Source: a virus (lineage: Duplodnaviria; Caudoviricetes). Taken from it: DNA of 64,000 nt. A program made the position numbers and the translations under genes. Under the pieces are notes generated by a model. That model searched no databases, was not told the DNA's origin, and worked only from the letters and a program-made list of their open reading frames with translations. The DNA is taken from positions 64,001 through 128,000 of IMG/VR virus record IMGVR_UViG_3300049792_000048; one strand, 5' to 3'. Positions 26,346-55,043 of the stretch are shown here, piece by piece; positions within the stretch are counted from its first letter, which is position 1, and each line of letters begins with the position of its first letter.

Positions 26346-26351
26346 TAGGAT
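26346..26351 (+). promoter_or_regulatory. -10 element (TAGGAT), leaderless
   Basis: TAGGAT 7 nt before ATG 26359. Confidence 0.5.
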
Positions 26352-26358
26352 GCACACC

Positions 26359-36590: not shown

Positions 36591-38396
36591 ATGATGCTGA
36601 AGCGTGCGTTCTCGTCGGCTGAAGGCGAGCCGCCGGTTCATCTCATCGAGGCCGGGCACATGACGAAAGTCGCCGGCGCGCTTCCGCTCGTCGAGGACTT
36701 CATCTCGCGTCTGCGTCCAGACCCCAAGTACATGTTCACTCACGTGAACGCCATGGGGTACTCGGAGTACTACGGGCCGAACTCGAACGTCGACTACTAC
36801 GGGTACAACCCACACCTCGACTTCAACGGTCTGCTGCACGCTCCCGAGACGTGTCATCTGCACGGCGAATACGAGAACTGGGAGACCGATCCCGTCGTAC
36901 AGGCTCGCATCGCGAAGAGCTGGCCATTCGGTTACCCCAGCTACTACGGCGCGACGGTCTACGCCCACCACAAGAACTCGGACCCCACCTCGTTGGGCTT
37001 CGGGGATGTCGTGTTCGTCGCCCGCAACGAGGCACAGAAGCGCATCGAGCTCGTGATGCGAGTCGATGTCGACCTCGCCATGCAACGTGGTCACTCTGCG
37101 ATTCTTGATAGGATCGGACGAGGCGATCGAGTCGATGTCTCGATGGGCTGCAAGGTCCCCTTCGACTTCTGCTCGATCTGCACCGACTGGGAGGCCGTAA
37201 AGAAGGCCCAGAAGGGCTACGACCCCAAGCGCCACGCCAGCCCAGGTGTCGCCATCCTGGTGTATCACCGGACCGTGAAGCCCATCCGTGGGCTCGCCAT
37301 TACGAAGGCTGACTACTGCGACCACATGGTCAAGCAGCGTGGGCAGGTACTGGACGATGGCCAGAAGGTCTTCGTCTACAACGACTATCCACGCTTCTTC
37401 GACATCAGCTTCGTGTGGATCGGAGCTGACCGCACCGCACGCGTGATGTTCTTCATGGGTGCGAATGGCAGCCGGCCCGGGGAACGTCAGCGTCCTCAGA
37501 GTATCGGTGAGCTCGTGAAGGGGGCTTCGGACATGTCGAAGACAGCCAGTGAGAAGGCGGAACCTGGAACCCTTCTCACCCGAGACCGCCTCCGGAAAAT
37601 GAAGAAGATGGCAATGGAGAAGGAGATCCCTGGAGGCATCACACGCAAGGTCGAGCTCTGCGCCAACTCCGAGATGGATATCCCGTTCGGAGAGCTGGCC
37701 TCCTTCTCGAAGGAGGTGGGGGCAAAGACCCTGCTCTCTACGCTCGCTGGTCTGGGCATAATGCTCAAGCCGAACGAGTTCCATGGCGTCGTCGGCACCG
37801 AGCACCCGCTTCACGCGAAGGTCGCCGCGATGGCTGCCGAGCACAACATGACGTTCAGGACATCGCTGCCTGGATACGAGACTGGCTATGCCGTGGACCC
37901 CGCCCTCTTCTCGCCCAAGTTGGCGGAGAAGCTCATGCCTTACGTCGAGCACCGCTCTTCGTTTGCCCCGCATCTTCACTACCGGCTCGGCACGATGGCG
38001 AAGACGGCTTCGGCCCCTCTTCCACAGCTACTTGATGCCGTGTTCGTTCATGATGTCGCGGCTCTTTACAATGGGTATCGGGCCTCGCTCCTGAAGCAGG
38101 CTGAGCACCTGATGCCGAAGTACCACGAGGTGTCTCCACCCGACTTCGAGCAGTTGACGAAGACAGCCTCGCTGGCGGGTCTTCTCCTGTCTTCATCCAC
38201 CGTGGTACATTGGATTTCGGCTCACCTCGAAAAGGTGGCAGAGGTCGAAGAGGAACTTGGTGCTGCTGTGAAGTACGTGATGACAAGCCCCAACTACCGT
38301 AAGCTCAGTGCTCTCGGTGACGAGGTTTGCGCCACGATGAATCGGAGCACCAACTTCATCTCCGGGCTCCGGAACGCGGTGCAGATCGCACTGTAA
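36591..38396 (+). CDS. Prohead (maturation) protease, HK97/assemblin-like, with Zn-ribbon insert and KxA-rich C-terminal extension
   Basis: VYAHH (His), DVSMG (Ser) and FFDISFVWIGAD follow the HK97-type H...S-x-G...E/D-I-S-x-V-x-x-P/G-A pattern; CSIC..CDH insert; upstream of scaffold and MCP. Confidence 0.75.
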   Translation: MMLKRAFSSAEGEPPVHLIEAGHMTKVAGALPLVEDFISRLRPDPKYMFTHVNAMGYSEYYGPNSNVDYYGYNPHLDFNGLLHAPETCHLHGEYENWETDPVVQARIAKSWPFGYPSYYGATVYAHHKNSDPTSLGFGDVVFVARNEAQKRIELVMRVDVDLAMQRGHSAILDRIGRGDRVDVSMGCKVPFDFCSICTDWEAVKKAQKGYDPKRHASPGVAILVYHRTVKPIRGLAITKADYCDHMVKQRGQVLDDGQKVFVYNDYPRFFDISFVWIGADRTARVMFFMGANGSRPGERQRPQSIGELVKGASDMSKTASEKAEPGTLLTRDRLRKMKKMAMEKEIPGGITRKVELCANSEMDIPFGELASFSKEVGAKTLLSTLAGLGIMLKPNEFHGVVGTEHPLHAKVAAMAAEHNMTFRTSLPGYETGYAVDPALFSPKLAEKLMPYVEHRSSFAPHLHYRLGTMAKTASAPLPQLLDAVFVHDVAALYNGYRASLLKQAEHLMPKYHEVSPPDFEQLTKTASLAGLLLSSSTVVHWISAHLEKVAEVEEELGAAVKYVMTSPNYRKLSALGDEVCATMNRSTNFISGLRNAVQIAL

Positions 38397-39337: not shown

Positions 39338-39574
39338 GTGATGAGCACCCACCCCAACTTGATGTTCGACAGCTTCCTGAAGACGGCGTCCACCGCCTCT
39401 GTCAGGCCAGCTTCGTCGTACGCCTCGTCGGGGATGGGTGACGCATCACAGAAGCTCAAGGTGACGAATGCGCCCAGCAAGTCGCAGTGGTCGTCACCGA
39501 ACCCGTCTCAGGCAACCCCCAACCAAAGCCCGTTCGCGGCTCAGAAGAACGCACCGCCTCCGCCGGTGCAGTGA
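39338..39574 (+). CDS. Small protein with FDSFLKTA leader
   Basis: Fills the gap in the head operon; Ser/Pro-rich after the KTA. Confidence 0.5.
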   Translation: MMSTHPNLMFDSFLKTASTASVRPASSYASSGMGDASQKLKVTNAPSKSQWSSPNPSQATPNQSPFAAQKNAPPPPVQ

Positions 39575-39584
39575 GGAAGACGTC

Positions 39585-40487
39585 ATGCGAAAGCTCAGTG
39601 CACTGGTGAATACCGCACTCGAATCCGCGAGCGAGAAGATCGCCTCGACGGTCGATGCGAGCGCAGCGGAAGCCGTGAAGGCTGCCGAGGCCGAGAAGCG
39701 TGCCGCGGCGGCTGCTGCCGTTCCGGTCCGCACGAAGGAGGCCGAGAAGCGCGCAAGCGTGATCACCACGGCAGCCGAGGCCGTCAAGGTCGCCGAGGTG
39801 CTGGAGCATCTCGCGGTCGTGATGCCCAAGCTCGCCGAGATGGGCACGAACCGCGGTGGTGGCAGCACGAACGTGCAGGACCGCACCGGCCCCGAGATCC
39901 TCACGTCGCCCGACAAGGGCGTGACGAAGGACACGATGACGTCGGCCTCGTCGATCCCGGCGCAGCGTGCGCATTCGGGCGGTGGCCCCGGCCACGGCAT
40001 GCACATCGAGACGAACAAGAACGACGCGCCCTGGAGCAAGTCCAAGAGCGCGGCCGAGGAGATCCTCACGGCGAAGATCGCACAGAGCAATGCTCTGCTC
40101 GCGGTCGGTCGTGCGAAGGAGGCCACGGAGCTCGCGAACACGGCTCGCACCGAGTTCGAGACCGCCAAGAAGGCGTACGAGGAGGAGGATGCCTCCACCA
40201 AGACGCCGCACGGCAACCCGAAGTCGCTGGCGACGAACCGCAACCAGGGCGACCTCCCGGTCCCCACGGGTCCGGTCCGTGACAACGCGGGCATGATCTC
40301 GATGACCAAGCGCGACGCCAAGACGAAGGACGTCCGCGCCGAGGCAGGCAAGCACGTCTCGGAGACCGCTCTCTCGGCGAAGACCGACAAGGGTCTCTCC
40401 GACAACCTCGACCACATCGAGGGGGCGAAGATCGCTTCCATCCTCGACACCGCGGCAGCGCGAAAGGCGGCGGCCACGGCCGCCTGA
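39585..40487 (+). CDS. KxA-rich scaffold/core protein (start ATG 39585)
   Basis: KIA, KAA, KRA x2, KVA, KLA, KSA, KIA x2; GAGGA RBS. Confidence 0.65.
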   Translation: MRKLSALVNTALESASEKIASTVDASAAEAVKAAEAEKRAAAAAAVPVRTKEAEKRASVITTAAEAVKVAEVLEHLAVVMPKLAEMGTNRGGGSTNVQDRTGPEILTSPDKGVTKDTMTSASSIPAQRAHSGGGPGHGMHIETNKNDAPWSKSKSAAEEILTAKIAQSNALLAVGRAKEATELANTARTEFETAKKAYEEEDASTKTPHGNPKSLATNRNQGDLPVPTGPVRDNAGMISMTKRDAKTKDVRAEAGKHVSETALSAKTDKGLSDNLDHIEGAKIASILDTAAARKAAATAA

Positions 40488-40499: not shown

Positions 40500-40904
40500 A
40501 TGGACCTCATCAAGCTCGCTTCGGATTCGCCTGCCGTCCTTCTCGAAGGCGCCAAGACGATCCGCAAGCTCGCGTCGGACAACGTGGAGCTCCAGGCCGA
40601 CAAGATGGCTGCGCTCCACCAGCTCCACATCCACAAGCTCGCGATGCTGATGCACGAGCGCGGCCTGGAGCCCGCTCTGTCGCTGTCGGAGAAGGTCGCG
40701 CATCTGAGTTCGGTCGAGCCCTCGAAGCTCGATGCGATCGAAGCCGCCGTCGAGATGAGCGCGGGCGGCTTCAAGCTGGCGACGCTTCGCACCGACGAGG
40801 AGACCTCGTCTTCGCACGGTGCGGGGCCGACGACGTTGTCCGGGGAGCTCGGTTCCTCGGCGAACTACGACCGACTGGACGCGCTCGTCCAGGCGATCGG
40901 CTGA
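40500..40904 (+). CDS. Small KxA-rich scaffold-like protein
   Basis: 6 of 8 lysines in K-x-A; C-terminal YDRLDALVQAIG helix. Confidence 0.65.
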   Translation: MDLIKLASDSPAVLLEGAKTIRKLASDNVELQADKMAALHQLHIHKLAMLMHERGLEPALSLSEKVAHLSSVEPSKLDAIEAAVEMSAGGFKLATLRTDEETSSSHGAGPTTLSGELGSSANYDRLDALVQAIG

Positions 40905-41459: not shown

Positions 41460-42572
41460 ATGCTGCACGATGCAAAGGAGCTGACCCTTCAGCACCTCTC
41501 GAACCCCGACGCGAAGACCAAGCTCGCGGCGGAGGTCGGGGGCTACATCCGAGACCGGCTGCGCGAGGCGTCGTTCCTGGAGCGGGTCCTCCCGCCCCAG
41601 ACCGTCACGCGCAGCGACTGCCAGATCTCGGTCAACCACGACTCGCTCGTGAAGATCGAGCACCTGGAGCCGCGTTCGCGCGCCATGGTGGTCACCTTCC
41701 GTGGCGAGCCGTCCGCCCGTCTCCTCCGCGGTGAGCGCGTCGAGGTGCCGTTCATCACCATCATGAGCGAGATGTACCAGAAGCCGGAGCAGGAGTTCCT
41801 GGCCTACCCGTACCCGCTCGGGAAGGTCGTCGAGCAGAACTCGATCCGCGACATCGGCGAGATCCAGGACCGTCAGTTCCTGATCTACTCCGAGGCCGCG
41901 GTGCAGGCCCTCCAGACCGAGGCGAACGGCACGACGACGTCGCTCAATGCGACGGCGCTCCAGAGCTCCACGCCCCCGGTGGAGTTCTCGGTCATCAAGG
42001 GCGAGCTCGCGCGTGCGGTCTCGACGAACGACGCGATCGTTCGTCCGATCCAGCGCCCGGACATCGTCAACCTGATGAAGCTCCTCGATGGCAACCGCCT
42101 CGAATGCGAGCTCATCCTCATCACGAGCAAGGATCTCGACGACGTCCTCCAGTGGACGATCGAGGACCAGGGCTCGAAGGTGCAGAGCGAGACCACCGTC
42201 CAGGGCTGGCAGTTCAACACCCTCCTCGGCAAGAAGCTGATCCGGACCATCAAGACGGACATCCTCCGTCCGGGCAACGTGTATGCGTACACGTCGCCGG
42301 AGTTCCTGGGTCGCTTCTACATCCTGAACAACGTCAAGTTCTACATCGACAAGGTGATCAACCTGATCAAGTTCGTCGCGTGGAAGGACGTCGGGATGAG
42401 CATCGTCAACGTCGCGTCGGTGCGCAAGCTGGAGCTCTACTCCGGCGACGCGACGTCGCTGAACGCCGACTCGGTTCTCGCGTCGGTCTCGCCGAAGGTC
42501 GAGGAAGATCTCGGGGCGCCGAACAACCGCGCCGCGGATCGCACGTTCTTCCCGGGCGTCGTCTCCTTCTGA
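41460..42572 (+). CDS. Major capsid protein (HK97 fold likely)
   Basis: Position after protease and scaffolds, double RBS, very strong codon bias, IRDRLRE..F.ERVLPP, GE.....RGERVEVP and EIQDRQFL features; followed by hairpins. Confidence 0.8.
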   Translation: MLHDAKELTLQHLSNPDAKTKLAAEVGGYIRDRLREASFLERVLPPQTVTRSDCQISVNHDSLVKIEHLEPRSRAMVVTFRGEPSARLLRGERVEVPFITIMSEMYQKPEQEFLAYPYPLGKVVEQNSIRDIGEIQDRQFLIYSEAAVQALQTEANGTTTSLNATALQSSTPPVEFSVIKGELARAVSTNDAIVRPIQRPDIVNLMKLLDGNRLECELILITSKDLDDVLQWTIEDQGSKVQSETTVQGWQFNTLLGKKLIRTIKTDILRPGNVYAYTSPEFLGRFYILNNVKFYIDKVINLIKFVAWKDVGMSIVNVASVRKLELYSGDATSLNADSVLASVSPKVEEDLGAPNNRAADRTFFPGVVSF

Positions 42573-42580
42573 TAGAGGAG

Positions 42581-42648
42581 CCCAGCTCGGGCTGGGACCA
42601 GCTACGATGGGCCGGTTGGCTGGAGACGGCCTTCCGGCCCATTGTGTT
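42581..42648 (+). terminator. Tandem hairpins after the MCP (terminator/processing site)
   Basis: CCCAGC-TCGG-GCTGGG, then ATGGGCCGG...GAGA loop...CCGGCCCAT followed by TGTGTT. Confidence 0.55.
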
Positions 42649-42676
42649 GATGAACCTGAAAACGAACGAGGAAGAC

Positions 42677-43711
42677 ATGGACAAGATCGTGTATCTGTAT
42701 GGCTCGGGTCGCGACGCGGAAACGCGTGTGCTCCGTCATGCCACCAAGCCCCGCCAGATGGTGATTCGCCTCGGCCCGTGGACCGTACGTCCCGCCCGTC
42801 GCATCGCCGTCGAGTTCCCTCGGCTCGCTCCTCACAAGGACGAGCTGCTCCACAAGATCTCGCAGGGGATCCTCCAGCTCCAGAGTGGCGACGGCGTCGT
42901 CTACTCGATCGTGGAGCTCAACGCGGCGTTCGCGGAGCTCGTCGGTACACCCGACGCTCCCAACTACGAGACGATGCCGTACGCCCAGCTCATGGGGCTG
43001 ATGCGCACGGAGAAGCCGACGCAGGAAGCGTGGGAAGCCTTCGTCTCTCGCTCCATCGCAGACTCCCTCACGGAGTCCGATCCGGAGATGCCGAGCACCA
43101 TCACGCGGATTCGGGGACTCATGTCCTACTCGCCGCGTGTCGCTGAGCTCGGGGTCGACATCACGGCAACGGACATCGTCCTCGCGAGCGCCCTCGCCAA
43201 GGCGGAGGCCAGCAAGGAGGCCGAGCAAGCAGAAGCCGACGCAGCTCGTGCTGAAGAGGCACGTGTCGCGGACGAGGCTGCTCGCATCGCTGCGGCCCAG
43301 GAAGCTGCCCGTGTCGAGGAAGCTGCTCGTGTCGAGAAGGAGAAGGTCGATACGCTTCTTCCGCCGAGCGACGCTCAGGCCGACGAGCCCACGCACGACG
43401 ATGGTGCGCCTCCGCCGTCGGATGCGGATGCTCCCCACGACGAGATCGGCACCCCGTCCGAGGTGAGTCCGGAGCAGATGGACTTCTCGGCCGAGGAGAC
43501 CAACACGGAGCCCGTCGTCGAAGAGACGAAGAGTGAAGAGGTCGTGGTCGAGAAGTCGGCCGATTCGCAGCGCACCCTCCCCGAGGGCTGGCGCGGCGCC
43601 ACCAACAAGGACCTGAAGGATCTCATCGCCAAGACGGGCGCCAAGATGCCCGAGCAGGTCAGCAAGGCGAACCTCATCTCGGCTCTGGAGGAGTGGTTGG
43701 GAGGTAACTGA
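42677..43711 (+). CDS. Hypothetical protein with acidic linker and C-terminal HeH/LEM-like motif (start ATG 42677)
   Basis: GAGGA RBS; EEAAR repeats; TNKDLKDLIAKTG..SKANLISAL. Confidence 0.6.
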   Translation: MDKIVYLYGSGRDAETRVLRHATKPRQMVIRLGPWTVRPARRIAVEFPRLAPHKDELLHKISQGILQLQSGDGVVYSIVELNAAFAELVGTPDAPNYETMPYAQLMGLMRTEKPTQEAWEAFVSRSIADSLTESDPEMPSTITRIRGLMSYSPRVAELGVDITATDIVLASALAKAEASKEAEQAEADAARAEEARVADEAARIAAAQEAARVEEAARVEKEKVDTLLPPSDAQADEPTHDDGAPPPSDADAPHDEIGTPSEVSPEQMDFSAEETNTEPVVEETKSEEVVVEKSADSQRTLPEGWRGATNKDLKDLIAKTGAKMPEQVSKANLISALEEWLGGN

Positions 43712-44225: not shown

Positions 44226-44711
44226 ATGTTGCCCGCACTACAGCTCATCGTGACCTGTACGAAGTGTCTTCGTGGGCTTCCTCGTACGCGGGAGTTCTTC
44301 CCTTCCCACAGCACAGCCAAAGATCGGATGGGGTCGTGGTGCTTGGTGTGTGCGAAAGAAGCAGGCCGTTCATGGAGAAGGAGACGCACCTGGGAGCAAA
44401 GATTGCTCAAAGCAGTGTTTGACCGACAGGTTCAGCGGTGGCCGGAAGAGGTGTTCGACCTGTCCATCCAAGTGCTCTCACAGATGCATGAGCATCAGAA
44501 TGGGCTCTGCCACTGGTATGGGGTTCCGTTCACCTACGAGACCAAATCTGGGCCCACCTTGATCTCAGTGGATCGCCTCGACAACAGTCGTGGCTACACG
44601 AAAGACAATGTGGTCCTTGCCTGCGACGCGGCGAACCGTGGTCGAAAGGACTACAGCCCCGAACAGTTCTCGCACTTCGTTGCCCAACTTCGGGCATCAA
44701 TGAGAGGATGA
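44226..44711 (+). CDS. HNH-like homing endonuclease
   Basis: CTKC..CLVC; QNGLCHW..SVDRLDNSRGYTKDNVVL..AN. Confidence 0.8.
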   Translation: MLPALQLIVTCTKCLRGLPRTREFFPSHSTAKDRMGSWCLVCAKEAGRSWRRRRTWEQRLLKAVFDRQVQRWPEEVFDLSIQVLSQMHEHQNGLCHWYGVPFTYETKSGPTLISVDRLDNSRGYTKDNVVLACDAANRGRKDYSPEQFSHFVAQLRASMRG

Positions 44712-44715: not shown

Positions 44716-45195
44716 ATGACGATCTCTTTCATCAAGGCCAAGGACCCGGAGCAGCTTTCCCGGCTCTTGAACGGCCTCGTGCTCAGCAAGAAGAACCTGT
44801 CGCTGGGTCGTGATCTGGGCCCGCGTGCCATGCCGGGTGACCTCTACAAGCACCCAGTCGCTGGCCTCACCCTGATCTTCACGACGCCCGGGTTCACGGT
44901 GACGTTCTCGGCCAACCTCGACCTCAAGCACATCGTTGCAGAGATCAACACGGCTGCCGGCAAGGACATCGCTCACCTCATCCACTTCGATGACAATGGT
45001 GGTCAGGTGCTCGCCATCTGGGACGACACCACCCCGGTCGTCATGCTCAGCACGGGTACGGCCAACACGTACTTCGGATTTTCGACCACCGTGGCTGACC
45101 CACACCTCACGCAGACGGCGACCGACCCCGACAACATCGTCGCGATCGTCGTCGAGATTCTCAGCCGTCAGTACGTCGCCTTCATCAAGGGGTGA
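44716..45195 (+). CDS. Structural protein, stand-alone paralogue of the fibre N-terminal domain
   Basis: Shares LNGLV, LYKHPVAGLTL, LDLK.IVA.IN, WDD.TPV and GTAN.YFGFSTT with the 57458 protein. Confidence 0.7.
   Translation: MTISFIKAKDPEQLSRLLNGLVLSKKNLSLGRDLGPRAMPGDLYKHPVAGLTLIFTTPGFTVTFSANLDLKHIVAEINTAAGKDIAHLIHFDDNGGQVLAIWDDTTPVVMLSTGTANTYFGFSTTVADPHLTQTATDPDNIVAIVVEILSRQYVAFIKG
44842..44870 (+). repeat. 29-bp exact direct repeat, copy 1
   Basis: CTCTACAAGCACCCAGTCGCTGGCCTCAC also at 57575-57603. Confidence 0.85.
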
Positions 45196-47693
45196 GCATC
45201 ATGAGCCACGACCTCGACAAGACCTTGCTCTCGACCTTCAAGCCGACGAACCCCATCGGGTTCATCGACGGCTCATTCTTCATCGCGGGGATGAAGAAGA
45301 TGGCGGAGGGCGAGATGCCCGAAGCCGGTGCAGCCGAGGGCCCTTTCCTCGTGCCTCTCCCGCAGGCCGTCGAACTCATCGCACAGATGGTCTCGAACGA
45401 GTTCAAGACGCAGACGTACTACGTCTACTACGCGAACATGCTTCGTGGCCTCTCTCACGAGGGGATCGCGGAGGAGTTCATGGAGCATGCGGGGCACGAG
45501 CTCGAACATGCCGACTACCTGCTGCGGCGCATGAGTGTGCTGTCGCCGGGCGGCGTCTCGATCCCGCCCTACCCGCCGCCCGAGCCGCTGCACGACCCGA
45601 ATGAGATCGTGCAAGCGATGATCGTCGTCGAACAGATGGGCCTCACGCTGTGGAAGCAGCTCCACAGCATCTGTGGCGAGAACCCGATGAAGTTCACCAT
45701 CGAGCAGTTCCTCCAGCGCGAGGAGGAGCACCAGGATGAGCTCTGGCAGCTCGTCGAGCCCGCGGGCTTGCCTGCCATGCCCGTGGCTGAAGCTCCGGCT
45801 CCGACTGAGCAGTCCGCCGAAGGTCAGCCGGCATCGACGAAGGTGCAGGTCGAAACGACTCCGTCCGAGCCGAAGCAGGCAGCGGTCGCCACGTACGACG
45901 AGCTTCGTCGTGCAGGCCTCGATCCCAGCAAGAGCAAGAAGGCCGCCGACCTCACCGCTGGTGCCCGGTCCGAGATCAAAGACGACAACTTCGTGTTCCC
46001 TGCGGAACGCAAGTACCCCATCCACGACAAGGACCACGCCCTTGCCGCTCTTGGGATGGTCGGCATGCACGGCACGTCCGATGAGAAGTCGAAGGTGCGT
46101 GCAGCCGTCGAGAAGAAGTTCCCCGGCATCCACGAGCACGAGAAGAAGGCGGCGATGAAGGGCTTCCTCCAGAAGCGTATCGCCGACCTCAACAAGGACA
46201 TGGATGCAATCCACCACAAGGACCAGGTCCGTGTGGAGTTCGTGCCGCAGTCGCCCGCCGCACTTCGTGCACAGAAGCCGGACGTTCAGAAGAAGACCGA
46301 CAACGCGAAGTCGCCGAAGGACGTCTCGATCAAGCCGGTAGGTGCTCCGATCTCGCTGGTCGACCTCATCGAGAAGGGGAAGTCCGCTGCATATGTCGGC
46401 GGTGCGGTGCTCCCGAACAGCACCGACTTCTTCAAGAAGCACAAGGAGAACGAGAAGAAGTCGGACATGGTGATGCCCGATGCCGATTCTCCCGAAGCGT
46501 ACATCGAGCGTGAACAGCAGCTCGGTGCGCAGCAGGCGATGGCCGAAGCCTCGCACGCCAAGACCGTCGCGATGCAGGCCTCACAGGCGGCTCAGCAGGC
46601 GCAGGCAGAAGCTCAGGCTGCTCAGCAACAGCTCATGCAGGCCCAGCAGCAGGTCGAGCAGCTCACGCAGCAGTCCCAGATGGACTCGCAGCAGGCAATG
46701 ATGGCGACGCAGCAGGCTTCGGAAGCGGAAGGCCGTGCTGCCGATCACTCGATCCAGAAGATGCAGCTCGGCATGCGCGTCAACCAGATGCGGCAGGAGC
46801 TCGCCAACTTCGTGATGCAGGACCCGGTCGCCGAGTCCGCAGCCACGGTCAGTGACCTCGCCGCTCAGGGCATGCCGGCCACTCCCCAGCAGCAGGCGGA
46901 GGCCGAGGTTGCCGCACAGACCGGGGTCGCTCCTGGTCAAGAAGGAGCCCCCGGGCAAGATTCCCAGGATTCTGCGCCAGGGGGTCAGGAACAGGCCGCA
47001 GGAGGCCAGGAACAGCCCTCCGGTGGTGAGGCCAAGGGCGACGACAAGGGCGGCAAGCCTGGTACTCACGTCACCGTGAAGACTTCGGTCGACGTCGCGA
47101 CGATCGTGGGCAAGCGTGGTATCCGCGGTGCCGTCGGCGCTGCTGCGGCTCCCGCGGCTGGGGGTCTTGGTGCCCTCATCCAGAAGGCTCGTCCGTATCT
47201 GCCCGCAGCAGGTGCAGCGGCTGGTGGTCTCGCTCTCGCGGGTGGGGCCATGGCGAGCCGTGACAAGAGCGCGGGGGTCGTCGACTCCGTGGGTCGTGCG
47301 ACCGGACGCAGCATCGCTCACGGTATGGGTGAGGCGGCGACCGAGGCGTTCGCGAAGCACGCACCCAATGCAGGTGCGGCTGCTCTCGCCGGCGGAGGCA
47401 TCCTCGCTGCTCACAGCATGCATGCTCGCTCTCAGCGCAAGTCCGACATGGCGGACTCGGTCGCCGAGGGGATCCGTCGTGCGAAGACGGGTTCTCATGG
47501 TGACACCGCTGAGCGTGCGGTGAACGCTGCCATCAACCACGGTGTCGGATCCGCCCAGCGCGGTGTCCACGCCCTCGGTCCGCATCTTCGTGACCACATG
47601 CCCGCGTTCGTCGCTGGCCTCGGCACCGGCATCCTCGGCACGAAGGTGCTGTCGTCGCCTCCTCCCATCGACCCGTCGCAACAGCAGTACTGA
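45192..47693 (+). CDS. Modular virion polyprotein: ferritin-like domain, DUF6582-like domain, Gln-rich coiled coil, Gly-rich membrane modules
   Basis: Di-iron pattern NEFK..Y..ELEH..EQ..EEEH; FVFPAERKYPIHDKDHA; modules bounded by KMA, KQA, KAA, KSA, KKS, KTS, KSA and KTG. Confidence 0.75.
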   Translation: MSIMSHDLDKTLLSTFKPTNPIGFIDGSFFIAGMKKMAEGEMPEAGAAEGPFLVPLPQAVELIAQMVSNEFKTQTYYVYYANMLRGLSHEGIAEEFMEHAGHELEHADYLLRRMSVLSPGGVSIPPYPPPEPLHDPNEIVQAMIVVEQMGLTLWKQLHSICGENPMKFTIEQFLQREEEHQDELWQLVEPAGLPAMPVAEAPAPTEQSAEGQPASTKVQVETTPSEPKQAAVATYDELRRAGLDPSKSKKAADLTAGARSEIKDDNFVFPAERKYPIHDKDHALAALGMVGMHGTSDEKSKVRAAVEKKFPGIHEHEKKAAMKGFLQKRIADLNKDMDAIHHKDQVRVEFVPQSPAALRAQKPDVQKKTDNAKSPKDVSIKPVGAPISLVDLIEKGKSAAYVGGAVLPNSTDFFKKHKENEKKSDMVMPDADSPEAYIEREQQLGAQQAMAEASHAKTVAMQASQAAQQAQAEAQAAQQQLMQAQQQVEQLTQQSQMDSQQAMMATQQASEAEGRAADHSIQKMQLGMRVNQMRQELANFVMQDPVAESAATVSDLAAQGMPATPQQQAEAEVAAQTGVAPGQEGAPGQDSQDSAPGGQEQAAGGQEQPSGGEAKGDDKGGKPGTHVTVKTSVDVATIVGKRGIRGAVGAAAAPAAGGLGALIQKARPYLPAAGAAAGGLALAGGAMASRDKSAGVVDSVGRATGRSIAHGMGEAATEAFAKHAPNAGAAALAGGGILAAHSMHARSQRKSDMADSVAEGIRRAKTGSHGDTAERAVNAAINHGVGSAQRGVHALGPHLRDHMPAFVAGLGTGILGTKVLSSPPPIDPSQQQY

Positions 47694-47702: not shown

Positions 47703-48635
47703 ATGGATCAGCTCAACAAGTTCTTGATCGACACATTCGGCGGCACCAAGTTGGCCTCGGCCACTCCGATCGAGGCAGTCGAGCCGAACGAGTACGATCG
47801 CATCGCGTTCAAGCGTGCCTTCCTGGACGGCTGCGTCGACGAAAAGTTCCTCGCATCGTTCGAGGGGACTCCTCTCGCTCCGCAGGCGATCGCTCTGTGT
47901 GAGCAGGAGCTCGCAATGGAGCAGGCTCAGCTCCAGGCTCGCATGGCTCGTGACGCGCAGAACGCCGCCTTCGACTACACGAAGGAGTGCAACGAACGCG
48001 AGGGCATGAGGCTCCAGAAGCTTCAGCTCACCATCCAGCTTCACAAGATGAAGACGATGGGCGTCGGCGCTCCGACTCCTCCGGGCCAGGCCGTGATTGG
48101 TACGCCCGATCCTGCGGCTGCTGCGATGGCTGCTCCGCCCGAGCTGGGTGGGGGTGCCGAAGGTGGGGCTCCGGTGCAGGAGCCCGCTGGTGGCAAGCTC
48201 GCCGCTCTCATGACGAAGGTCGCCGAGAAGAAGAACAAGGCGAAGGACGAGATGATCAGTCGAGGCCGTCGTGCCAGCACGGGCGCGACCATCGGCAACG
48301 TCCTGGGCTCCCCAGTCTTCAGCCAGGAGTTCACTCCCGGCTCGATGATCGGCTCCGTGATCGGTGGCGGCATCGGTGGCGCTGTGGCTGACGGTGGCCG
48401 TGGCGCCCTCATGGGAGCGGCGGGTGCGGGCGGTGGCGCAGCGATGGGGGCCCTCGCCGGGCATGGTGTCGCGAAGGCTCTCAAGCTCCGTGACCCCGGC
48501 CTCGCTCGTGGACTCGGCTCCCTGATGGGTGCGACATATGGAGCTCCGATCGCCGTCGAAGGCGGACGTGCAATCGCCGAGGCGCAGAAGCGCGCCAGTC
48601 TCTCCGAGCTCATCCAGTTCTCGCTGGGGAAGTGA
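47703..48635 (+). CDS. Virion protein: KLA leader, coiled coil, Gly-zipper membrane module
   Basis: KLA, KLA-KVA and KRA motifs; GSVIGGGIGGAV and GAAMGALAG. Confidence 0.6.
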   Translation: MDQLNKFLIDTFGGTKLASATPIEAVEPNEYDRIAFKRAFLDGCVDEKFLASFEGTPLAPQAIALCEQELAMEQAQLQARMARDAQNAAFDYTKECNEREGMRLQKLQLTIQLHKMKTMGVGAPTPPGQAVIGTPDPAAAAMAAPPELGGGAEGGAPVQEPAGGKLAALMTKVAEKKNKAKDEMISRGRRASTGATIGNVLGSPVFSQEFTPGSMIGSVIGGGIGGAVADGGRGALMGAAGAGGGAAMGALAGHGVAKALKLRDPGLARGLGSLMGATYGAPIAVEGGRAIAEAQKRASLSELIQFSLGK

Positions 48636-49384
48636 TGTTCGACCTCGACCTCATCGTGAAGGCAGCAGCGGTGGCCGTACGTCCTCATGTACGGCGTGCG
48701 CCGGGGACTGTCGTCGGCAAGGTCAAGAAGTCAGGACTAATGAGCACCATCGGTCTCGAAGCAGGTCAGGTCGGCAAGCATGTCAACCAGGCCGCCCGCA
48801 TCGCACAGCAAGGTGCAGATCCTGTTCGTCGTGCAGCGGTGGCTGAGCTCGCCGGCTACTACAAGAACTTGGGCACCTCCGCAGGAACGCAAGCAGCTCA
48901 GCACTCCATGACGATGGCTGCGCAGAAGGCGCAGACGGCTGTCCCGCAGATGGCGAATGTGGTCGCCAAGAAGACGCCCACGATGGCCTTCTCACAGGGG
49001 TCCGTTCTTCAGCACGCCGCTCAGCAGCTCGGTCCCCAGAAGGTGATCGCTGGCGCTGTGCAGCATGGAGCTCCCGTCATCGGAAGCGCCAGTGTGCTGG
49101 ATCATCTTTCGCAGATGCCCTTCGGCAAGTTGGCTCATGCCCTCGAACGCGGGTACGCACCGTCGCTCCCGAAGGGAGTTGATGTCTCGATGGGCCGGAT
49201 GAAGAACCAGCCCCAGTCCGAAGCCGGCTACGGCACTCCCGATACGCTCAGCGCGGCCAACCCGAAGAAGCCGAAGCCGAAGCGCACACGTGACGGCATC
49301 ACTGTCGCGGAGCTCCTCGATCAGCTTGCTCAGCAGGCAGGACTGTTCCCCAAGCCGAACAAGACCACGGGATCTTCTCACTGA
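48632..49384 (+). CDS. Hypothetical virion protein with KAA leader
   Basis: MFDLDLIVKAA; KLA; coupled overlaps. Confidence 0.55.
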   Translation: MMFDLDLIVKAAAVAVRPHVRRAPGTVVGKVKKSGLMSTIGLEAGQVGKHVNQAARIAQQGADPVRRAAVAELAGYYKNLGTSAGTQAAQHSMTMAAQKAQTAVPQMANVVAKKTPTMAFSQGSVLQHAAQQLGPQKVIAGAVQHGAPVIGSASVLDHLSQMPFGKLAHALERGYAPSLPKGVDVSMGRMKNQPQSEAGYGTPDTLSAANPKKPKPKRTRDGITVAELLDQLAQQAGLFPKPNKTTGSSH

Positions 49385-51941: not shown

Positions 51942-54900
51942 ATGACCACTCCGAACATGCTTCCCCGGCCGGGCGTCAAGGTTTTCACCGAGTTCCGGAA
52001 CGTCAACCCCACGATCTTCAAGCCCCAGATGCCCGCCTGCGTGATGGGCGTGGCGAAGGAGGTCGTGCAGGCTGTCCTGGACGACGGTACGCTGAACAGC
52101 CAAGCGCTGCTCGCGCTGCCGGCTCGGATCGAGTTCCCGTACGTCTCGACGCCGTTTCAGTACGCGACGCTTGGAGGCCTCACCCTCCAGCTCAGCGTGA
52201 ACAACGGCCCCACCCAGACCATCACGTTCCCGGGCTCGCCGGCGAACCCGACGGTCGCGGAGGTGAAGGCGTACATCGACTCGCTCGACATCGTCGGGCT
52301 ACTCGTCGACATCGAGACGAGCGGTGCGCAGCAGCGCATCGTTTTGCGTACGGTCGCCACGGGCCCGTTCGCGACGCTTTCGATCATGGGCGGCACCAGC
52401 CTCACCGTGCTGAACCTGCGCGCTGGCGGGTACACGGAGACGGGTCGCGGCGGCTACAACAACTTCTACTCGGTCGACCTCGGCCTGGGGAACTACCCGA
52501 ACCCGCGCAGCAACCTCGACGAGCTCACGCTCGACTACACGACGGTGCGTGTGTTCGCCGCGATCGGCGGAGGCGCTTTCGTCGAGGTCAGCCGCACGAG
52601 CACGTTCATGCGTGGTGCGACGTCCGCGGTCAGCGTCTTCGATGACGGTGATGGCGACAACCTCTCGCCGTACCTCACGTTCGCCGGCCAGAACTTCACC
52701 GATGGCGCTGCGGTCCTCACCGGCACCGTCGATCTGTCGGGTACGTTCGGAGCCCTGAACGGCACGAGCGCGATCTTCTCGAAGGATGGCGCCGGAGCCA
52801 TCACCACGAACTTCTCGGCTGCGGCCAGCGCTGCGGACATCGTCTCGCAGATCAACGCCGCGTTCGGTTCGACCGTCGCATCGCTCGGCACGAGCAACCA
52901 TCTCGTCCTCACGTCCGGCACGACTGGTCCGGGCTCGTCGTTCGAGCGCACGGGTGGCTCCGCGACATCGGGCAACCTCGGTCTCGCCATCGGCGATTAC
53001 GCCGCGGGTCGCCGCAGTCGTGCTCGTACGCAGGGCAGCGTCGATCTCACGGGCCTCACGTACGGCGCTGGTGGCCCGTTCGCGACGCCTGGCCGCTCGC
53101 TCATCATGAGCGTGGATGGCGAGGCCGAGCAGACGCTCATCATCGGTCCCACGATCGCCAACGCTGCGGCTCTCGTGACGGCCATCAACACGAAGTGGCA
53201 GGTGCCCGCAGGCAATGCCATCGCGTCGCTGAACGGCGGCAACAAGCTCGTGCTTCGCTCGCCCAACACTCAGGGTGGTGAGGAGAGCGTCCTCCGTATC
53301 AACTCGCTCTCGACGGCGATCGCCACGCTCGGTATCACTGCGGGTCGCTACGCTGGCAATGCGTACGCCCCGGCTGTGGGCGATGAAGTCTTCGGCAACG
53401 GCATCCGCCTCGGCCTCATCACGGAGGTCGCTCCCGCTGGCGTGGTGACGCGCCTCCGCCTCGACACGGAGTACCTGCTGACCGCGACGTGGGTCAACTT
53501 CTACATCCGTGCGCTCGACCTCACGGGCCCCCAGACTTCGACTCGCCCGAGTGCTGACCTCCAGGTCGACGCGACCTCGGGCGAGATCATCGTCAAGCAC
53601 GAAACCTTCCGTGCTCCTGATGGCACGCCGACGGCCGCGGTCGACCTGGGGGTCTACCTCGGGTACACGGCGCTTCGTCGCGATGTGTCGGCAGCCGGCA
53701 CCAACAGCAACCTCCTCCGCATCGGTGACCTCACCACGCTGGAGTCGAAGCTGTCGCCCATCAGCCCCGAGAACCCCCTGGGCCTCGGTATGTACTTCGC
53801 GATGCTCAGCGCTCCGGGCCTGGAATCGTTCGGCCTGGGCATCGGCGAGGCGACCACCACGGAGCCGTTCGGCACGCTCGGAGCATGGGCGGAGGCCTAC
53901 ACGTTCATCGAGTCGAAGGACGTGTACGCGATCGCGCAGCTCACCCACGACCTCACGGTCTCGGACCTCGCGGATGCTCACGTCACGGCGATGAGCGATC
54001 CCGAGGTCGGTCTCGAACGTGTCGTGTTCAACAACCCGACGCGTCCGGAGCGCACGGCGAACGAACTCATCGGCTCGGGCTCGCTCGGCAACAGCACGGG
54101 TGGCGTCTCGACGTTCGACACGGGTCTGGCGAACCTGCCGGCTCTGCTCGCTGCGGCTGGCCACCCGGCCCCGCCGTACGACATCGACGACCGCATCGTC
54201 CTCAAGCTGGAGGACGACACCAACAACTACCTCATCACTGGGGTGGCCGGCTCGCTCGTCACAGTCAGCACGGGAGCTCTCGCTGCTGGCACCGACGAGG
54301 ACAACGCCGACGGGTTCTACTTCGACGGCAGCTCGCCGGCGTTCGCCAACCCGATCGTCGACCGCCCCTTCTCGATCTTCATCCGTGGCACCGTGCTCGC
54401 GGACCTGACCGAGGAAGCGATCGCATACGCCGCGATCCCGCAGGGCTACAAGAACCGCCGCATGATCTTCGTCACGCCCGACAAGGCGAAGGCGACCATC
54501 GACGGTCTGGAGCAGGAGATCGAGGGCTTCTATGTCTGCGCCGCGCTCGCGGGCAAGACGGCGTCGAAGCTCCCGGCCGACCCGATGACCAACGTCGGCA
54601 TCAAGGGCTTCACCGGCCTCATCGGTGCGAGCGATCGCTACGGTGAGATCCAGTACCGCATCATGGACGGGGGTGGCCTTTGGAACATGTTCCAGGAGAC
54701 CGCGGGCCAATCCATCCAGACCCGCCACCAGCTCACGTCGGACGTCGACACGATCGAGCAGCGCGAGTTCTCGATCCTGACGGCGCTCGACTTCACGGCG
54801 AAGTTCCTCCGCGGCGGTCTGCGGAACTACATCGGCCGGTTCAACATCACGCAGAACCTCCAGAGCTCGATCAGCACGGCGCTGGACGGCCTCGGGAACT

Positions 54901-55043
54901 TCCTCACCGTCCAGAAGGTGCTGGCGTCCTTCAAGGTCGCTCGCCTCGTGCAGAACCCGGATCAGCCGGACTCGCTGCTCCTCGACCTGAACGTGGGGGT
55001 GTTCTATCCCTGCAATGAAATAAAGGTCACACTTATCGTTTGA
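51942..55043 (+). CDS. Tail sheath protein with large insertion domains
   Basis: RPGVKV N-terminus; C-terminal sheath domain (GFYVCAALAG, DPMTN..IKG, RHQLT, E.SI...D, YIGR, V.YPCN.I). Confidence 0.88.
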   Translation: MTTPNMLPRPGVKVFTEFRNVNPTIFKPQMPACVMGVAKEVVQAVLDDGTLNSQALLALPARIEFPYVSTPFQYATLGGLTLQLSVNNGPTQTITFPGSPANPTVAEVKAYIDSLDIVGLLVDIETSGAQQRIVLRTVATGPFATLSIMGGTSLTVLNLRAGGYTETGRGGYNNFYSVDLGLGNYPNPRSNLDELTLDYTTVRVFAAIGGGAFVEVSRTSTFMRGATSAVSVFDDGDGDNLSPYLTFAGQNFTDGAAVLTGTVDLSGTFGALNGTSAIFSKDGAGAITTNFSAAASAADIVSQINAAFGSTVASLGTSNHLVLTSGTTGPGSSFERTGGSATSGNLGLAIGDYAAGRRSRARTQGSVDLTGLTYGAGGPFATPGRSLIMSVDGEAEQTLIIGPTIANAAALVTAINTKWQVPAGNAIASLNGGNKLVLRSPNTQGGEESVLRINSLSTAIATLGITAGRYAGNAYAPAVGDEVFGNGIRLGLITEVAPAGVVTRLRLDTEYLLTATWVNFYIRALDLTGPQTSTRPSADLQVDATSGEIIVKHETFRAPDGTPTAAVDLGVYLGYTALRRDVSAAGTNSNLLRIGDLTTLESKLSPISPENPLGLGMYFAMLSAPGLESFGLGIGEATTTEPFGTLGAWAEAYTFIESKDVYAIAQLTHDLTVSDLADAHVTAMSDPEVGLERVVFNNPTRPERTANELIGSGSLGNSTGGVSTFDTGLANLPALLAAAGHPAPPYDIDDRIVLKLEDDTNNYLITGVAGSLVTVSTGALAAGTDEDNADGFYFDGSSPAFANPIVDRPFSIFIRGTVLADLTEEAIAYAAIPQGYKNRRMIFVTPDKAKATIDGLEQEIEGFYVCAALAGKTASKLPADPMTNVGIKGFTGLIGASDRYGEIQYRIMDGGGLWNMFQETAGQSIQTRHQLTSDVDTIEQREFSILTALDFTAKFLRGGLRNYIGRFNITQNLQSSISTALDGLGNFLTVQKVLASFKVARLVQNPDQPDSLLLDLNVGVFYPCNEIKVTLIV

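What the first reader, a model, noticed from the sequence alone, without database searches (positions are those of the whole stretch)
45192..47693. Polyprotein whose domain borders are KxA/S/G sites
Architecture read from the sequence: leader-KMA | ferritin-like | linker-KQA | KAA | DUF6582-like domain | KKAA | low complexity-KSA | KKS | Gln-rich coil | KTS | Gly-TM | KSA | Gly-TM | KTG | Gly-TM. The motifs fall mainly at junctions between unrelated modules. This suggests a viral-polyprotein strategy in a dsDNA phage: one packaged precursor cut into several internal or ejected proteins.
Basis: partly seen in the sequence, partly recalled or inferred. Interest (0 to 1): 0.82.

Follow-up and report, generated by a model that had tools for sequence, protein, structure and literature searches.

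The report
Protease-jointed ferritin head protein of phage
An uncultured 196-kb phage encodes, between its capsid and tail genes, an 830-residue chain of unrelated modules (a real ferritin-type iron domain first) whose joints carry a conserved Lys-x-Ala/Ser/Gly motif that is probably cut by the phage's own head protease, although no cut has been measured.

Summary
The ORF is real; its true start is probably ATG 45201 (830 aa). Their number is at chance level (K-x-[ASG] 15 seen, 15.8 expected), but their placement and conservation are not. None of the 12 Lys inside the three confidently folded modules is in a motif. The motif Lys are invariant or nearly so in otherwise variable linkers. Across homologues, K-x-[ASG] sits directly before the DUF6582-like module in 17 of 18 distinct contexts and before a C-terminal module in 14 of 16. 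Indel ends cluster at the motif; control motifs show nothing. Family-wide, K-x-A is enriched in the leader (182 vs 49) and avoided in the ferritin core (26 vs 67) and coil (0 vs 35). The same genome has head proteins saturated with K-x-A and a candidate assemblin/T4 gp21-fold protease (36591-38396). Best reading: a head-packaged precursor processed at K-x-(A/S/G). Cleavage, packaging and ejection are inferred, not shown. Modules are gained and lost in a fixed order rather than shuffled, and the "Gly-TM" segments are only weakly hydrophobic. The scan noted a ferritin/K-x-A head protein earlier on another phage genome (e1-5618754).

The parts
45201..47693 (+). Gene for the 830-aa multi-module protein (P0002).
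   Evidence: homologues and the database product start at this ATG; SD AAGGGG lies upstream; the upstream gene stops at 45195
45201..45305 (+). N-terminal leader (aa 1-35): two helices, the second amphipathic, ending in K33-M-A35
   Evidence: a leader of type EAAxFFxGLK-x-A occurs in about 140 of 174 family members; K33 and A35 are at least 90% conserved in 51 sequences
45342..45752 (+). Ferritin-like four-helix di-iron domain (aa 48-184); ligands E67, E100-x-x-H103, E144, E174-x-x-H177
   Evidence: PF00210 E 1e-11; pLDDT above 85; best folds are bacterioferritin and DPS-like proteins; ligands invariant
45873..45881 (+). K225-Q-A227 at the end of the Pro/Ala/Glu-rich linker after the ferritin domain
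   Evidence: pLDDT below 50; a P-K-x-A-[AS] site follows the ferritin core within about 50 aa in 163 of 169 family members
45936..45947 (+). K246-K-A-A249 joint directly before the DUF6582-like module
   Evidence: K-x-[ASG] immediately precedes 'ADLT' in 17 of 18 distinct upstream contexts
45957..46118 (+). DUF6582-like small folded module (aa 253-306)
   Evidence: PF20223 18.1 bits (below cut-off); phrog_16160 E 1e-9; pLDDT 74-92; resembles stand-alone 75-109-aa viral proteins
46143..46154 (+). K315-K-A-A318 joint at the N-terminal end of helix 312-341
   Evidence: K315 invariant; K-x-[AS] in 10 of 10
46380..46388 (+). K394-S-A396 at the end of helix 386-396 (less conserved site)
   Evidence: K-x-[ASG] in 4 of 7 aligned homologues
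46455..46463 (+). K419-K-S421, a few residues before the coil module
   Evidence: K-x-[AS] lies 0-6 aa before the 'hhPxP' start of the coil module in 35 of 51 distinct contexts
46491..46814 (+). Gln/Ala-rich single long helix (aa 431-538), most conserved part after the ferritin domain; probable coiled coil
   Evidence: present in 88 family members; no K-x-[ASG] at all in 85 copies (49.8 expected)
47079..47087 (+). K627-T-S629 joint ('VTVKTS')
   Evidence: 9 of 9; homologues lacking the next module join VKTS directly to the following one
47088..47273 (+). Gly/Ala-rich weakly hydrophobic module 1 (aa 630-691), ending in K689-S-A691
   Evidence: pLDDT 30-40; Kyte-Doolittle maximum 1.36; absent as a unit in P0016, P0018 and P0009
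47274..47492 (+). Helical/Gly-rich module 2 (aa 692-764), ending in K762-T-G764
   Evidence: K-x-[ASG] precedes 'GVVD' in 14 of 16 contexts; K762 invariant; the whole module is missing in P0008 between two K-T-A sites
47493..47690 (+). C-terminal module (aa 765-830) with the invariant H-x-P...G-x-G-x-G-x-x-G glycine-zipper-like end
   Evidence: H799, P801, G806, G808, G810 and G813 invariant
36591..38396 (+). Candidate prohead protease: N-terminal domain (to about 37520) fused to a K-x-A-rich C-terminal part. Conserved H126/H127, S184 (codons SMGC at 37140-37151) and H226.
41520..41528 (+). K21-L-A23 in the major capsid protein (gene 41460-42572): the one K-x-A of that protein, near its N-terminus
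   Evidence: conserved in three syntenic phage contigs
47703..49384 (+). Two downstream genes (47703-48635, 48632-49384) whose products begin with short leaders ending K-L-A|S and K-A-A|A and also hold Gly/Ala-rich segments

Best explanation
The gene encodes a precursor that is loaded into the prohead and then cut by the phage's own assemblin-fold head protease. The cuts fall at K-x-(A/S/G) sites placed at the joints between its modules.

Proposed steps:
1. The roughly 35-residue amphipathic leader brings the precursor into the assembling core. This is inferred by analogy with T4's capsid-targeting sequence.
2. The protease (N-terminal domain of ORF 36591-38396) cuts after the small residue, with Lys at P3, Ala/Ser/Gly at P1 and often Ser/Ala/Glu at P1'. 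The cut position is inferred from the P3-x-P1 rule of T4 gp21, phiKZ gp175 and the herpesvirus assemblins.
3. This removes the leader and frees the following pieces:
   - a ferritin-type di-iron module of about 21 kDa;
   - a DUF6582-like mini-domain;
   - a helical piece;
   - a roughly 200-residue Gln-rich coil;
   - three Gly/Ala-rich C-terminal pieces.
4. The pieces stay in the head with the DNA and may leave with it (speculative).

Shown here:
- the module structure;
- an intact ferroxidase ligand set;
- placement, conservation and domain-avoidance of the motif;
- K-x-A saturation of neighbouring head proteins;
- a protease candidate.

Inferred: packaging, cleavage, the exact cut bond and the fate of the pieces.
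For: 1. Position. The sites lie in pLDDT<50 stretches or at helix ends, and 0 of 12 Lys inside the three confident domains are in a motif.

2. Conservation. K33/A35, K315 and K762 are invariant, and K225, K627 and K689 nearly so, in linkers that otherwise vary. Lys outside the motif are conserved only inside folds.

3. Junction rule across different neighbours. K-x-[ASG] sits directly before the DUF6582 module in 17/18 contexts, before module GT2 in 14/16, GT1 5/6, the helical piece 7/8 and the coil 35/51. A site follows the ferritin core within about 50 aa in 163/169 proteins.

4. Indels. Both ends lie within 3 aa of the motif in 92 events against 22.7 expected. Controls R-x-[ASG], E-x-[ASG] and K-x-[LVE] are flat. 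Hand-read cases in alignment A1 (P0004, P0005, P0008, P0016/18) are each flanked by two motifs.

5. Avoidance in 172 family members. Ferritin core: K.A 26 vs 67.2. Coil: 0 vs 34.9. Leader: 182 vs 48.7. R.A and E.A are flat.

6. Same genome. Pooled head-module proteins have K.A 67 vs 18.8 (z 11, top of all X.Y pairs). A control pool of RNAP, terminase, topoisomerase, sheath and tail proteins shows nothing. P1' is S 22, A 13 and E 8 of 67. The signal is in the coding frame only. The MCP's single K-x-A is at residues 21-23 and is conserved.

7. Protease candidate (ORF 36591).
   - Foldseek's top ~40 hits are all herpesvirus proteases (E about 0.05).
   - An independent aligner ranks T4 gp21 first (Z 7.9, rmsd 2.9 over 131 aa) and VZV protease second (Z 7.7).
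   - His...Ser...His are invariant in 36 sequences.
   - Inteins in many homologues sit 2 residues after S184.
   - It matches phage G gp19 (E 7e-9), which PMC12484599 lists as a head maturation protease.

8. The cultured relative Salmonella phage Arash shows the same K.A excess in head genes that its virion proteome detected (39 vs 17.6).
Against: - No protein-level data exist for this phage or any carrier of the ferritin gene.
- The motif count in this ORF is at chance, so the case rests on placement and conservation.
- The homologues are related, so the junction, indel and avoidance counts are not independent events.
- The protease fold matches are of middling strength (Foldseek E>=0.05; Z<8). 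No Pfam or PHROG protease family hit ORF 36591.
- In SPN3US all known head-protease cuts yield N-terminal propeptides, not several mature products.
- No split genes at the joints were found.
- A profile of the family's leader finds no other gene in this genome, so a shared targeting signal is not shown.
- The gene lies between capsid and sheath genes, where neck proteins usually sit.
Confidence: 0.55

Rival explanations
1. Leader-only processing. The protein is packaged and loses only its N-terminal propeptide at K33-M-A35, as in T4 internal proteins and SPN3US head proteins. The internal K-x-(A/S/G) sites are not cut, or are cut only partly, so a large multi-domain internal protein persists.
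For: The leader site is the most widely conserved, found in about 140 of 174 family members. In SPN3US all identified cuts produce N-terminal propeptides. Module order is fixed and no split genes were found.
Against: It does not explain why internal joint Lys are invariant in variable linkers. It does not explain why modules come and go exactly between two motifs, or why the motif is purged from the coil and ferritin core.
Confidence: 0.2
2. K-x-A is a non-proteolytic joint motif. It could be a short docking or flexibility element recognised by a scaffold or chaperone. It could also be a by-product of recombination between short repeated codon strings that creates module indels. In this reading the protein stays intact.
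For: Indels flanked by the same short motif are what repeat-mediated deletion would give. The cut itself is unobserved.
Against: The signal is at protein level only: the AAR-NNN-GC pattern occurs 67 times in frame 1 and once each in frames 2 and 3. A three-residue motif is too short to be a docking site. Proteins with 10 of 11 Lys in K-x-A next to a protease-like gene fit scaffold clearance, as with T4 gp22. The MCP carries its only site near the N-terminus.
Confidence: 0.12
3. Not head cargo. The protein is a neck, collar or fibre component, with the long coil as a shaft, or a cytoplasmic enzyme. Its position in the late operon is incidental and the motif has no bearing on its function.
For: It lies between capsid and sheath genes, where connector and neck genes usually sit. 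It has a 108-residue single helix. No ferritin homologue occurs in any virion proteome examined.
Against: The conserved leader ends in the same motif that saturates the scaffold-like head proteins. The two downstream genes carry similar leaders. Motif avoidance inside the folds has no explanation under this reading.
Confidence: 0.08

Closest known systems
Phage T4 internal proteins (IPI-III, Alt) and core proteins with the capsid-targeting sequence, processed by prohead protease gp21 at (L/I)-x-E (PMC9026906; own knowledge)
   Same: A short N-terminal leader ends in the protease motif. Scaffold-like proteins are riddled with the motif. Cargo is carried in the head.
   Different: The motif is K-x-(A/S/G), not hydrophobic-x-Glu. 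The leader is about 35 aa rather than about 10. The sites recur at every module joint of one long chain. No sequence relationship was found.
Head proteins of giant phages phiKZ, 201phi2-1 and SPN3US cut by gp175/gp245 at (S/A/G)-x-E or A-x-E (PMC10052503, PMC5694885)
   Same: Large myovirus. An assemblin-fold protease processes many head and ejection proteins, with several cuts per protein.
   Different: There, all known cuts remove N-terminal propeptides and P1 is Glu. Here P1 would be a small residue and the pieces between sites are folded modules.
Herpesvirus assemblin cleavage sites (V/L/I)-x-A|S (own knowledge; structures 1at3, 1vzv, 2wpo among the fold hits)
   Same: The candidate protease's best Foldseek hits are assemblins. 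The inferred site has Ala at P1 and often Ser at P1'.
   Different: P3 is Lys rather than an aliphatic residue. The fold match is weak (E about 0.05) and the specificity is not measured.
Encapsulin nanocompartments with ferritin-like cargo (PMC5012862, PMC6668986)
   Same: A ferritin-superfamily di-iron protein is addressed by a terminal peptide to the inside of an HK97-fold shell.
   Different: Here the shell is a real DNA-packaging phage capsid, with terminase, sheath and tail genes. The address is N-terminal and probably cut off. The domain is a full four-helix Bfr/DPSL type, not the two-helix EncFtn. No encapsulin-type C-terminal loading peptide is present.
Polyvalent proteins of phages and conjugative elements (PMC5512222)
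   Same: Many unrelated modules lie in one polypeptide that is thought to travel in the virion and be processed into units.
   Different: None of the hallmark domains (MPTase, ArdC-N, InPase and others) occurs in this protein. Processing would be by the head protease acting in trans, not by a built-in peptidase. Ferritin is not among the domains listed in that survey.
Ferritin-like protein gp346 detected in phage G virions (PMC12484599)
   Same: It is a precedent for a ferritin-superfamily protein found in particle proteomics of a large myovirus. Phage G gp19 also matches the candidate protease here.
   Different: tblastn found no similarity between the ferritin domain here and any GenBank phage record. 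That paper describes no processing or leader.

Membership tests
Ferritin-like superfamily (Pfam PF00210) | Profile score above Pfam's gathering cut-off | tested here: met
   45.3 bits against a 24.5 cut-off, aa 58-184; 43 of 51 homologues also hit
Ferritin-like superfamily (Pfam PF00210) | Four-helix bundle fold | tested here: met
   AF2 pLDDT 86-98 over aa 48-184. Foldseek top hits are bacterioferritins, DPS-like proteins and mini-bacterioferritin, target TM 0.65-0.86. PDB sequence hit to DPS-like protein, E 1e-6.
Ferritin-like superfamily (Pfam PF00210) | Di-iron ligand set E / E-x-x-H / E / E-x-x-H | tested here: met
   E67, E100, H103, E144, E174 and H177 are invariant in alignment A1
Ferritin-like superfamily (Pfam PF00210) | Assembly into a 12- or 24-subunit cage, iron oxidation | not tested
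   No oligomer prediction or assay was done
DUF6582 (Pfam PF20223) | Profile score above the gathering cut-off | tested here: inconclusive
   18.1 bits against a 27.3 cut-off for this protein. One homologue of alignment A2 hits at 7.7e-14. phrog_16160 E 1e-9. The atlas gives look-alike clusters partly carrying PF20223.
Prohead-protease-processed head cargo (T4 IP / phiKZ-SPN3US type) | Gene in the head morphogenesis module of a tailed phage | tested here: met
   2.6 kb downstream of the MCP gene's end and upstream of the sheath gene. Synteny is conserved in three other contigs of about 170-197 kb.
Prohead-protease-processed head cargo (T4 IP / phiKZ-SPN3US type) | N-terminal leader ending in the motif that also marks the phage's scaffold and MCP propeptide | tested here: met
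   K33-M-A35 is at least 90% conserved. K.A is saturated in ORFs 34832, 40500 and 39468. MCP K21-L-A23 is conserved.
Prohead-protease-processed head cargo (T4 IP / phiKZ-SPN3US type) | Physical presence in heads and cleavage at the motif | not testable with these tools
   No proteomic data exist for any carrier. The supplement of the Arash paper holds only gene features, not peptides.
Viral polyprotein | One precursor yields several stable, functional mature proteins | not testable with these tools
   There is only indirect support: folded modules between conserved sites, and the DUF6582-like module resembles stand-alone small viral proteins
Assemblin-fold prohead serine protease (for ORF 36591-38396, the proposed enzyme) | Assemblin / T4 gp21 fold | tested here: inconclusive
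   Foldseek's top ~40 hits are all herpesvirus proteases, but E is 0.05-1. VIA-align ranks T4 gp21 first (Z 7.9, rmsd 2.9, 131 aa) and VZV protease second (Z 7.7), just above MCE-domain rows at Z about 6.
Assemblin-fold prohead serine protease (for ORF 36591-38396, the proposed enzyme) | Conserved His ... Ser ... His in that order | tested here: met
   H126/H127, S184 and H226 are invariant in 36 sequences. The intein insertion point is 2 residues after S184. Their spatial proximity was not checked.
Assemblin-fold prohead serine protease (for ORF 36591-38396, the proposed enzyme) | Match to a curated protease family (Pfam S78/U9/U35 or a PHROG protease) | tested here: not met
   No Pfam or PHROG hit. 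The only sequence link is to phage G gp19 (E 7e-9), which PMC12484599 calls a head maturation protease.
Encapsulin cargo system | Shell gene without a DNA-packaging or tail apparatus; C-terminal cargo-loading peptide | tested here: not met
   The genome has terminase, sheath and tail genes, and the address here is N-terminal. It resembles this system in working principle only.
Polyvalent proteins (Iyer et al. 2017) | Presence of hallmark domains such as MPTase, ArdC-N or InPase | tested here: not met
   Only Ferritin/Rubrerythrin and DUF6582 were found in 51 family members. A different gene of a related contig carries InPase.

The most novel reading that the evidence does not exclude
A whole clade of roughly 180-200-kb phages, including the cultured Salmonella phage Arash and Vibrio phages D69/D148/D181, matures its heads with an undescribed cleavage code: Lys-x-Ala|Ser, which is herpesvirus-like at P1/P1' but has Lys at P3. 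In one large uncultured branch this code is used to load and cut up a true polyprotein. The first product of that polyprotein is a catalytically competent ferritin, making the DNA-filled capsid an encapsulin-like carrier of an iron- or peroxide-handling enzyme that may be delivered to the host with the genome.
Probability: 0.3. Interest if true: 0.8.

Novelty: new variant of a known kind. Interest (0 to 1): 0.66.

Why it matters
Head-protease processing of packaged proteins is known, but only with Glu at P1 in large myoviruses and only as propeptide removal. This case differs in three ways.

1. It would add a new cleavage rule, one that can be read directly from sequence. That would allow prediction of mature virion proteins across a large, almost uncultured phage clade. 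The family has over 1,200 relatives in metagenomes and none in 50,697 GenBank phage records.

2. It would be a case in which a dsDNA phage uses the polyprotein economy of RNA viruses for its internal proteins.

3. It would put a ferritin-type ferroxidase inside a real virus capsid. That bears on the evolutionary link between HK97-fold capsids and encapsulins, and on how phages protect or deliver DNA under oxidative or iron stress.

The cultured relative Arash makes the cleavage rule directly testable.

Tried and rejected
- **Motif enrichment by count in the target.** None was found, so the argument had to move to placement and conservation.

- **DNA-level motif.** Rejected. AAR-NNN-GC occurs almost only in the coding frame.

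- **Shared targeting leader.** A profile of 137 family leaders finds only the target itself among all ORFs of the 196-kb genome. The neighbours' leaders are similar in style only.

- **Split genes at the joints.** A search for shorter proteins with residues 422-830 gave 3 hits. Only one looks like a complete gene, with a leader plus coil and no ferritin. Short stand-alone forms are therefore rare or not found.

- **Other domains.** A Pfam scan of 51 homologues for further domains in the variable C-terminal parts found nothing beyond Ferritin, Rubrerythrin and DUF6582.

- **Cultured relatives of the target.** tblastn with the whole protein and with the ferritin domain alone (E up to 1) against GenBank phages found no match.

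- **Protease by sequence.** Pfam, PHROGs and a profile search of PDB sequences gave nothing useful for ORF 36591. Only fold comparison and a weak link to phage G gp19 point to a protease.

- **Peptide-level evidence from the Arash paper.** The supplement is a feature table without peptides.

- **Literature.** Searches for a K-x-A or 'after alanine' phage protease site, for DUF6582, and for ferritin as phage head cargo found no description.

- **'Gly-TM' as transmembrane helices.** Kyte-Doolittle maxima of 1.2-1.4 and pLDDT of 30-40 do not establish this.

- **Complex prediction.** I did not run a prediction for leader with MCP or scaffold, or for protease with substrate. The partner is unknown and enzyme-substrate pairs are poor subjects for that test.


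Full report
**Context.** The window is bases 64001-128000 of a single 195,774-bp contig with 62% G+C. It carries:
- a fused 2065-aa multisubunit-type RNA polymerase, a large terminase and topoisomerase II;
- a major capsid protein (MCP) at 41460-42572 (phrog_2522);
- a tail sheath at 51942-55043.

It is a large myovirus-type phage. The nearest cultured relatives are remote. The MCP is 26.5% identical to that of Salmonella phage Arash. The candidate protease matches Arash, Vibrio phages D69/D148/D181 and Bacillus phage G.

**The ORF.** 45192-47693 is open on the + strand. The database product (P0002, 830 aa) and all homologues begin at the ATG at 45201. That ATG has AAGGGG 7 nt upstream, and the preceding gene stops at 45195. 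Residue numbers below are for the 830-aa protein.

**Modules.**
- Pfam finds Ferritin (PF00210, 45.3 bits, cut-off 24.5) and a sub-threshold DUF6582. PHROGs finds phrog_16160 over aa 252-313 of the 833-aa translation, which is 249-310 in the numbering used here.
- An AlphaFold2 model built on 51 sequences (mean pLDDT 62) has three confident parts: the ferritin bundle 48-184 (pLDDT 86-98), a small domain 253-306 (74-92) and one long helix 431-538 (about 80).
- Residues 185-231, 361-381, 400-425 and 546-740 are mostly disordered in the model.
- Fold search puts the first domain with bacterioferritins and DPS-like proteins. PDB sequence search agrees (DPS-like protein, E 1e-6).
- The ligand set E67, E100-x-x-H103, E144, E174-x-x-H177 is invariant.
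- The C-terminal Gly/Ala-rich stretches reach only 1.2-1.4 on the Kyte-Doolittle scale. I call them glycine-zipper-like rather than transmembrane.

**Is the motif more than chance?**

By number, no. The ORF has 9 K-x-A against 8.0 expected and 15 K-x-[ASG] against 15.8 expected.

By placement and conservation, yes.
None of the 12 Lys inside the three folded parts is in a motif.
- Among ten homologues of 52-91% identity, K33 and A35, K315 and K762 are invariant. K225, K627 and K689 are nearly so. The residues around them vary. Lys outside the motif are conserved only inside folds.
- K616-G-G, K619-P-G and K638-R-G are poorly conserved. K719-H-A is followed by Pro. I do not count these four as sites.

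**The family.**
- HMMER against 1.84 billion representatives gives 1,204 relatives (117 at E<1e-30). Nearly all are 400-1,340 aa long with the leader and ferritin at the N-terminus and a variable rest.
- None is in 50,697 GenBank phage records.
- About 140 of 174 members have an amphipathic leader of the type EAAxFFxGLK-x-A, 10-25 residues before the ferritin fold.
- After the ferritin core comes a Pro/Ala/Glu-rich linker ending in P-K-x-A-[AS]. This lies within about 50 residues in 163 of 169 proteins.
- Module content varies in a fixed order. The DUF6582-like, helical and Gly-rich modules come and go.
- K-x-[ASG] stands directly before the DUF6582-like module in 17 of 18 distinct upstream contexts, before module GT2 in 14 of 16, before GT1 in 5 of 6, before the helical piece in 7 of 8, and 0-6 residues before the coil in 35 of 51. 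A chance site within 3 residues of a given point is expected about 12% of the time.
- In pairwise alignments of 37 homologues, both ends of insertions of 20 residues or more lie within 3 residues of the motif 92 times against 22.7 expected. R-x-[ASG], E-x-[ASG] and K-x-[LVE] show no excess.
- Clear hand-read cases in alignment A1: P0016/P0018 join VKTS directly to the module that follows K-S-A in the window's protein. P0008 lacks exactly the stretch between two K-T-A sites. P0004 has an insertion flanked by two K-H-A sites.
- Over 172 members, K.A is enriched in the leader (182 vs 48.7) and depleted in the ferritin core (26 vs 67.2). It is absent from 85 copies of the coil (0 vs 34.9). R.A and E.A are unremarkable.
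- All these counts involve related sequences, so they overstate the number of independent events.

**The motif elsewhere in the genome.**
- K-x-A takes 10 of 11 Lys in ORF 34832, 6 of 8 in ORF 40500, 13 of 28 in ORF 39468 and 12 of 36 in ORF 36591. It is also enriched in ORFs 7543 and 26251.
- RNA polymerase, terminase, topoisomerase, sheath and tail proteins are at expectation.
- In an unbiased scan of all X.Y pairs, K.A tops the head pool (67 vs 18.8, z 11). Nothing stands out in the control pool.
- The residue after Ala is Ser in 22, Ala in 13 and Glu in 8 of 67 sites. The pattern exists only in the coding frame.
- The MCP has one K-x-A, at residues 21-23, conserved in three syntenic contigs. 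The two genes downstream of the target start with short leaders ending K-L-A|S and K-A-A|A.
- Arash head genes, which its virion proteome detected, show the same excess. K.A is again the top pair, 39 vs 17.6.

**A protease to match.**
- The N-terminal 300 residues of ORF 36591-38396 are highly conserved, with 591 relatives.
- H126/H127, S184 and H226 are invariant.
- Many relatives carry an intein inserted two residues after S184. That is a typical position for an essential active-site motif.
- For the AF2 model (pLDDT 77), Foldseek returns about 40 herpesvirus proteases as top hits, but at E 0.05-1.
- An independent aligner ranks T4 gp21 first (Z 7.9, rmsd 2.9 over 131 residues) and VZV protease second (Z 7.7).
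- tblastn links the domain to phage G gp19 (E 7e-9), which PMC12484599 lists as a head maturation protease.
- No curated protease family hits it. I rate this assignment likely, not settled.

**Mechanism.**
- The simplest account is that K-x-(A/S/G) is the recognition site of this protease.
- T4 gp21 ((L/I)-x-E), phiKZ gp175 ((S/A/G)-x-E) and the herpesvirus assemblins ((V/L/I)-x-A|S) all read P3-x-P1. This is from my own knowledge, plus for A-x-E in SPN3US. I therefore place the cut after the small residue, with Lys at P3. This position is inferred.
- The K-x-A-saturated proteins would be scaffold or core proteins degraded for clearance, like T4 gp22.
- The target would lose its leader and be divided into a ferritin piece (36-227), a short peptide, the DUF6582-like piece (249-317), a helical piece, the coil piece (422-629) and three Gly-rich pieces.
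- The DUF6582-like module resembles stand-alone small viral proteins (a lead only).
- What the ferritin does is open. The intact ferroxidase ligands argue for catalysis (iron or peroxide handling near the DNA, or in the host) rather than a purely structural role.

**Limits.**
- No cleavage, packaging or ejection has been observed.
- Known giant-phage proteases remove N-terminal propeptides only.
- The leader profile finds no other gene in this genome.
- Split forms are rare.
- Modules are gained and lost rather than shuffled.

**Comparison with what is known, and novelty.**
- The working principle matches T4, phiKZ and SPN3US head cargo processing, and in part the polyvalent-protein idea of PMC5512222.
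- The cleavage rule, the use of sites at every joint of a multi-module chain, and the ferritin cargo are not described in the literature I could search.
- Earlier notes of this scan describe the same theme with Glu-type sites in T4-like phages. One describes a ferritin/K-x-A head protein in another phage of about 185 kb.
- I class the finding as a new variant of a known kind.

Noticed in passing
window 36591-38396 (+): A 601-aa protein whose N-terminal ~300 aa look like an assemblin/T4 gp21-fold prohead protease (invariant H126/H127, S184, H226). It is fused to a C-terminal part carrying nine conserved K-x-A sites. Many metagenomic homologues have an intein inserted between G186 and C187.
   Followed up: partly
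window 34832-35635, 39468-40487, 40500-40904 (+): Scaffold-like head proteins in which most Lys are in K-x-A (10/11, 13/28, 6/8), often followed by Ser. They are probably degraded during maturation.
   Followed up: partly
window 7543-8847 (+) and 26251-28437 (+): Two further proteins outside the core head block with strong K-x-A excess (11 vs 2.8 and 12 vs 3.1). In the 728-aa one, the sites cluster towards both ends around a site-poor middle, as expected for a processed structural protein such as a portal.
   Followed up: no
window 44226-44711 (+) and 55077-55727 (+): Two HNH/endonuclease VII-like genes (phrog_3322, phrog_1035). The first lies between two conserved genes that are adjacent in contigs L001 and L002. 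The second lies just after the sheath gene. They look like mobile homing-endonuclease insertions.
   Followed up: partly
L004 (Salmonella phage Arash OQ632216.1, gp220-gp225): This cultured phage shares the K-x-A excess in head genes that its virion proteome detected. gp221 and gp224 have leader-K-x-A plus Gly/Ala-rich segments like the target's C-terminus. Its published MS data could test the cleavage rule.
   Followed up: partly
window 18452-24649 (+): A single 2065-aa ORF matches phage RNA polymerase beta and beta' families along its length (phrog_25354, phrog_24349 and several beta-subunit phrogs). It appears to be a fused multisubunit-type RNAP.
   Followed up: no
window 42572-43711 (+): The gene between the MCP and the 169-aa gene is hard to call here, because a 535-aa ORF in another frame overlaps the MCP gene. 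Related contigs have a gene of 224-388 aa at this place, so the real start is probably internal, near 42760.
   Followed up: no
L001 21514-22505 (contig of P0005): A 1110-aa protein with DUF5661 and InPase domains, hallmarks of 'polyvalent' virion proteins. It lies after the tail genes in a related phage.
   Followed up: no
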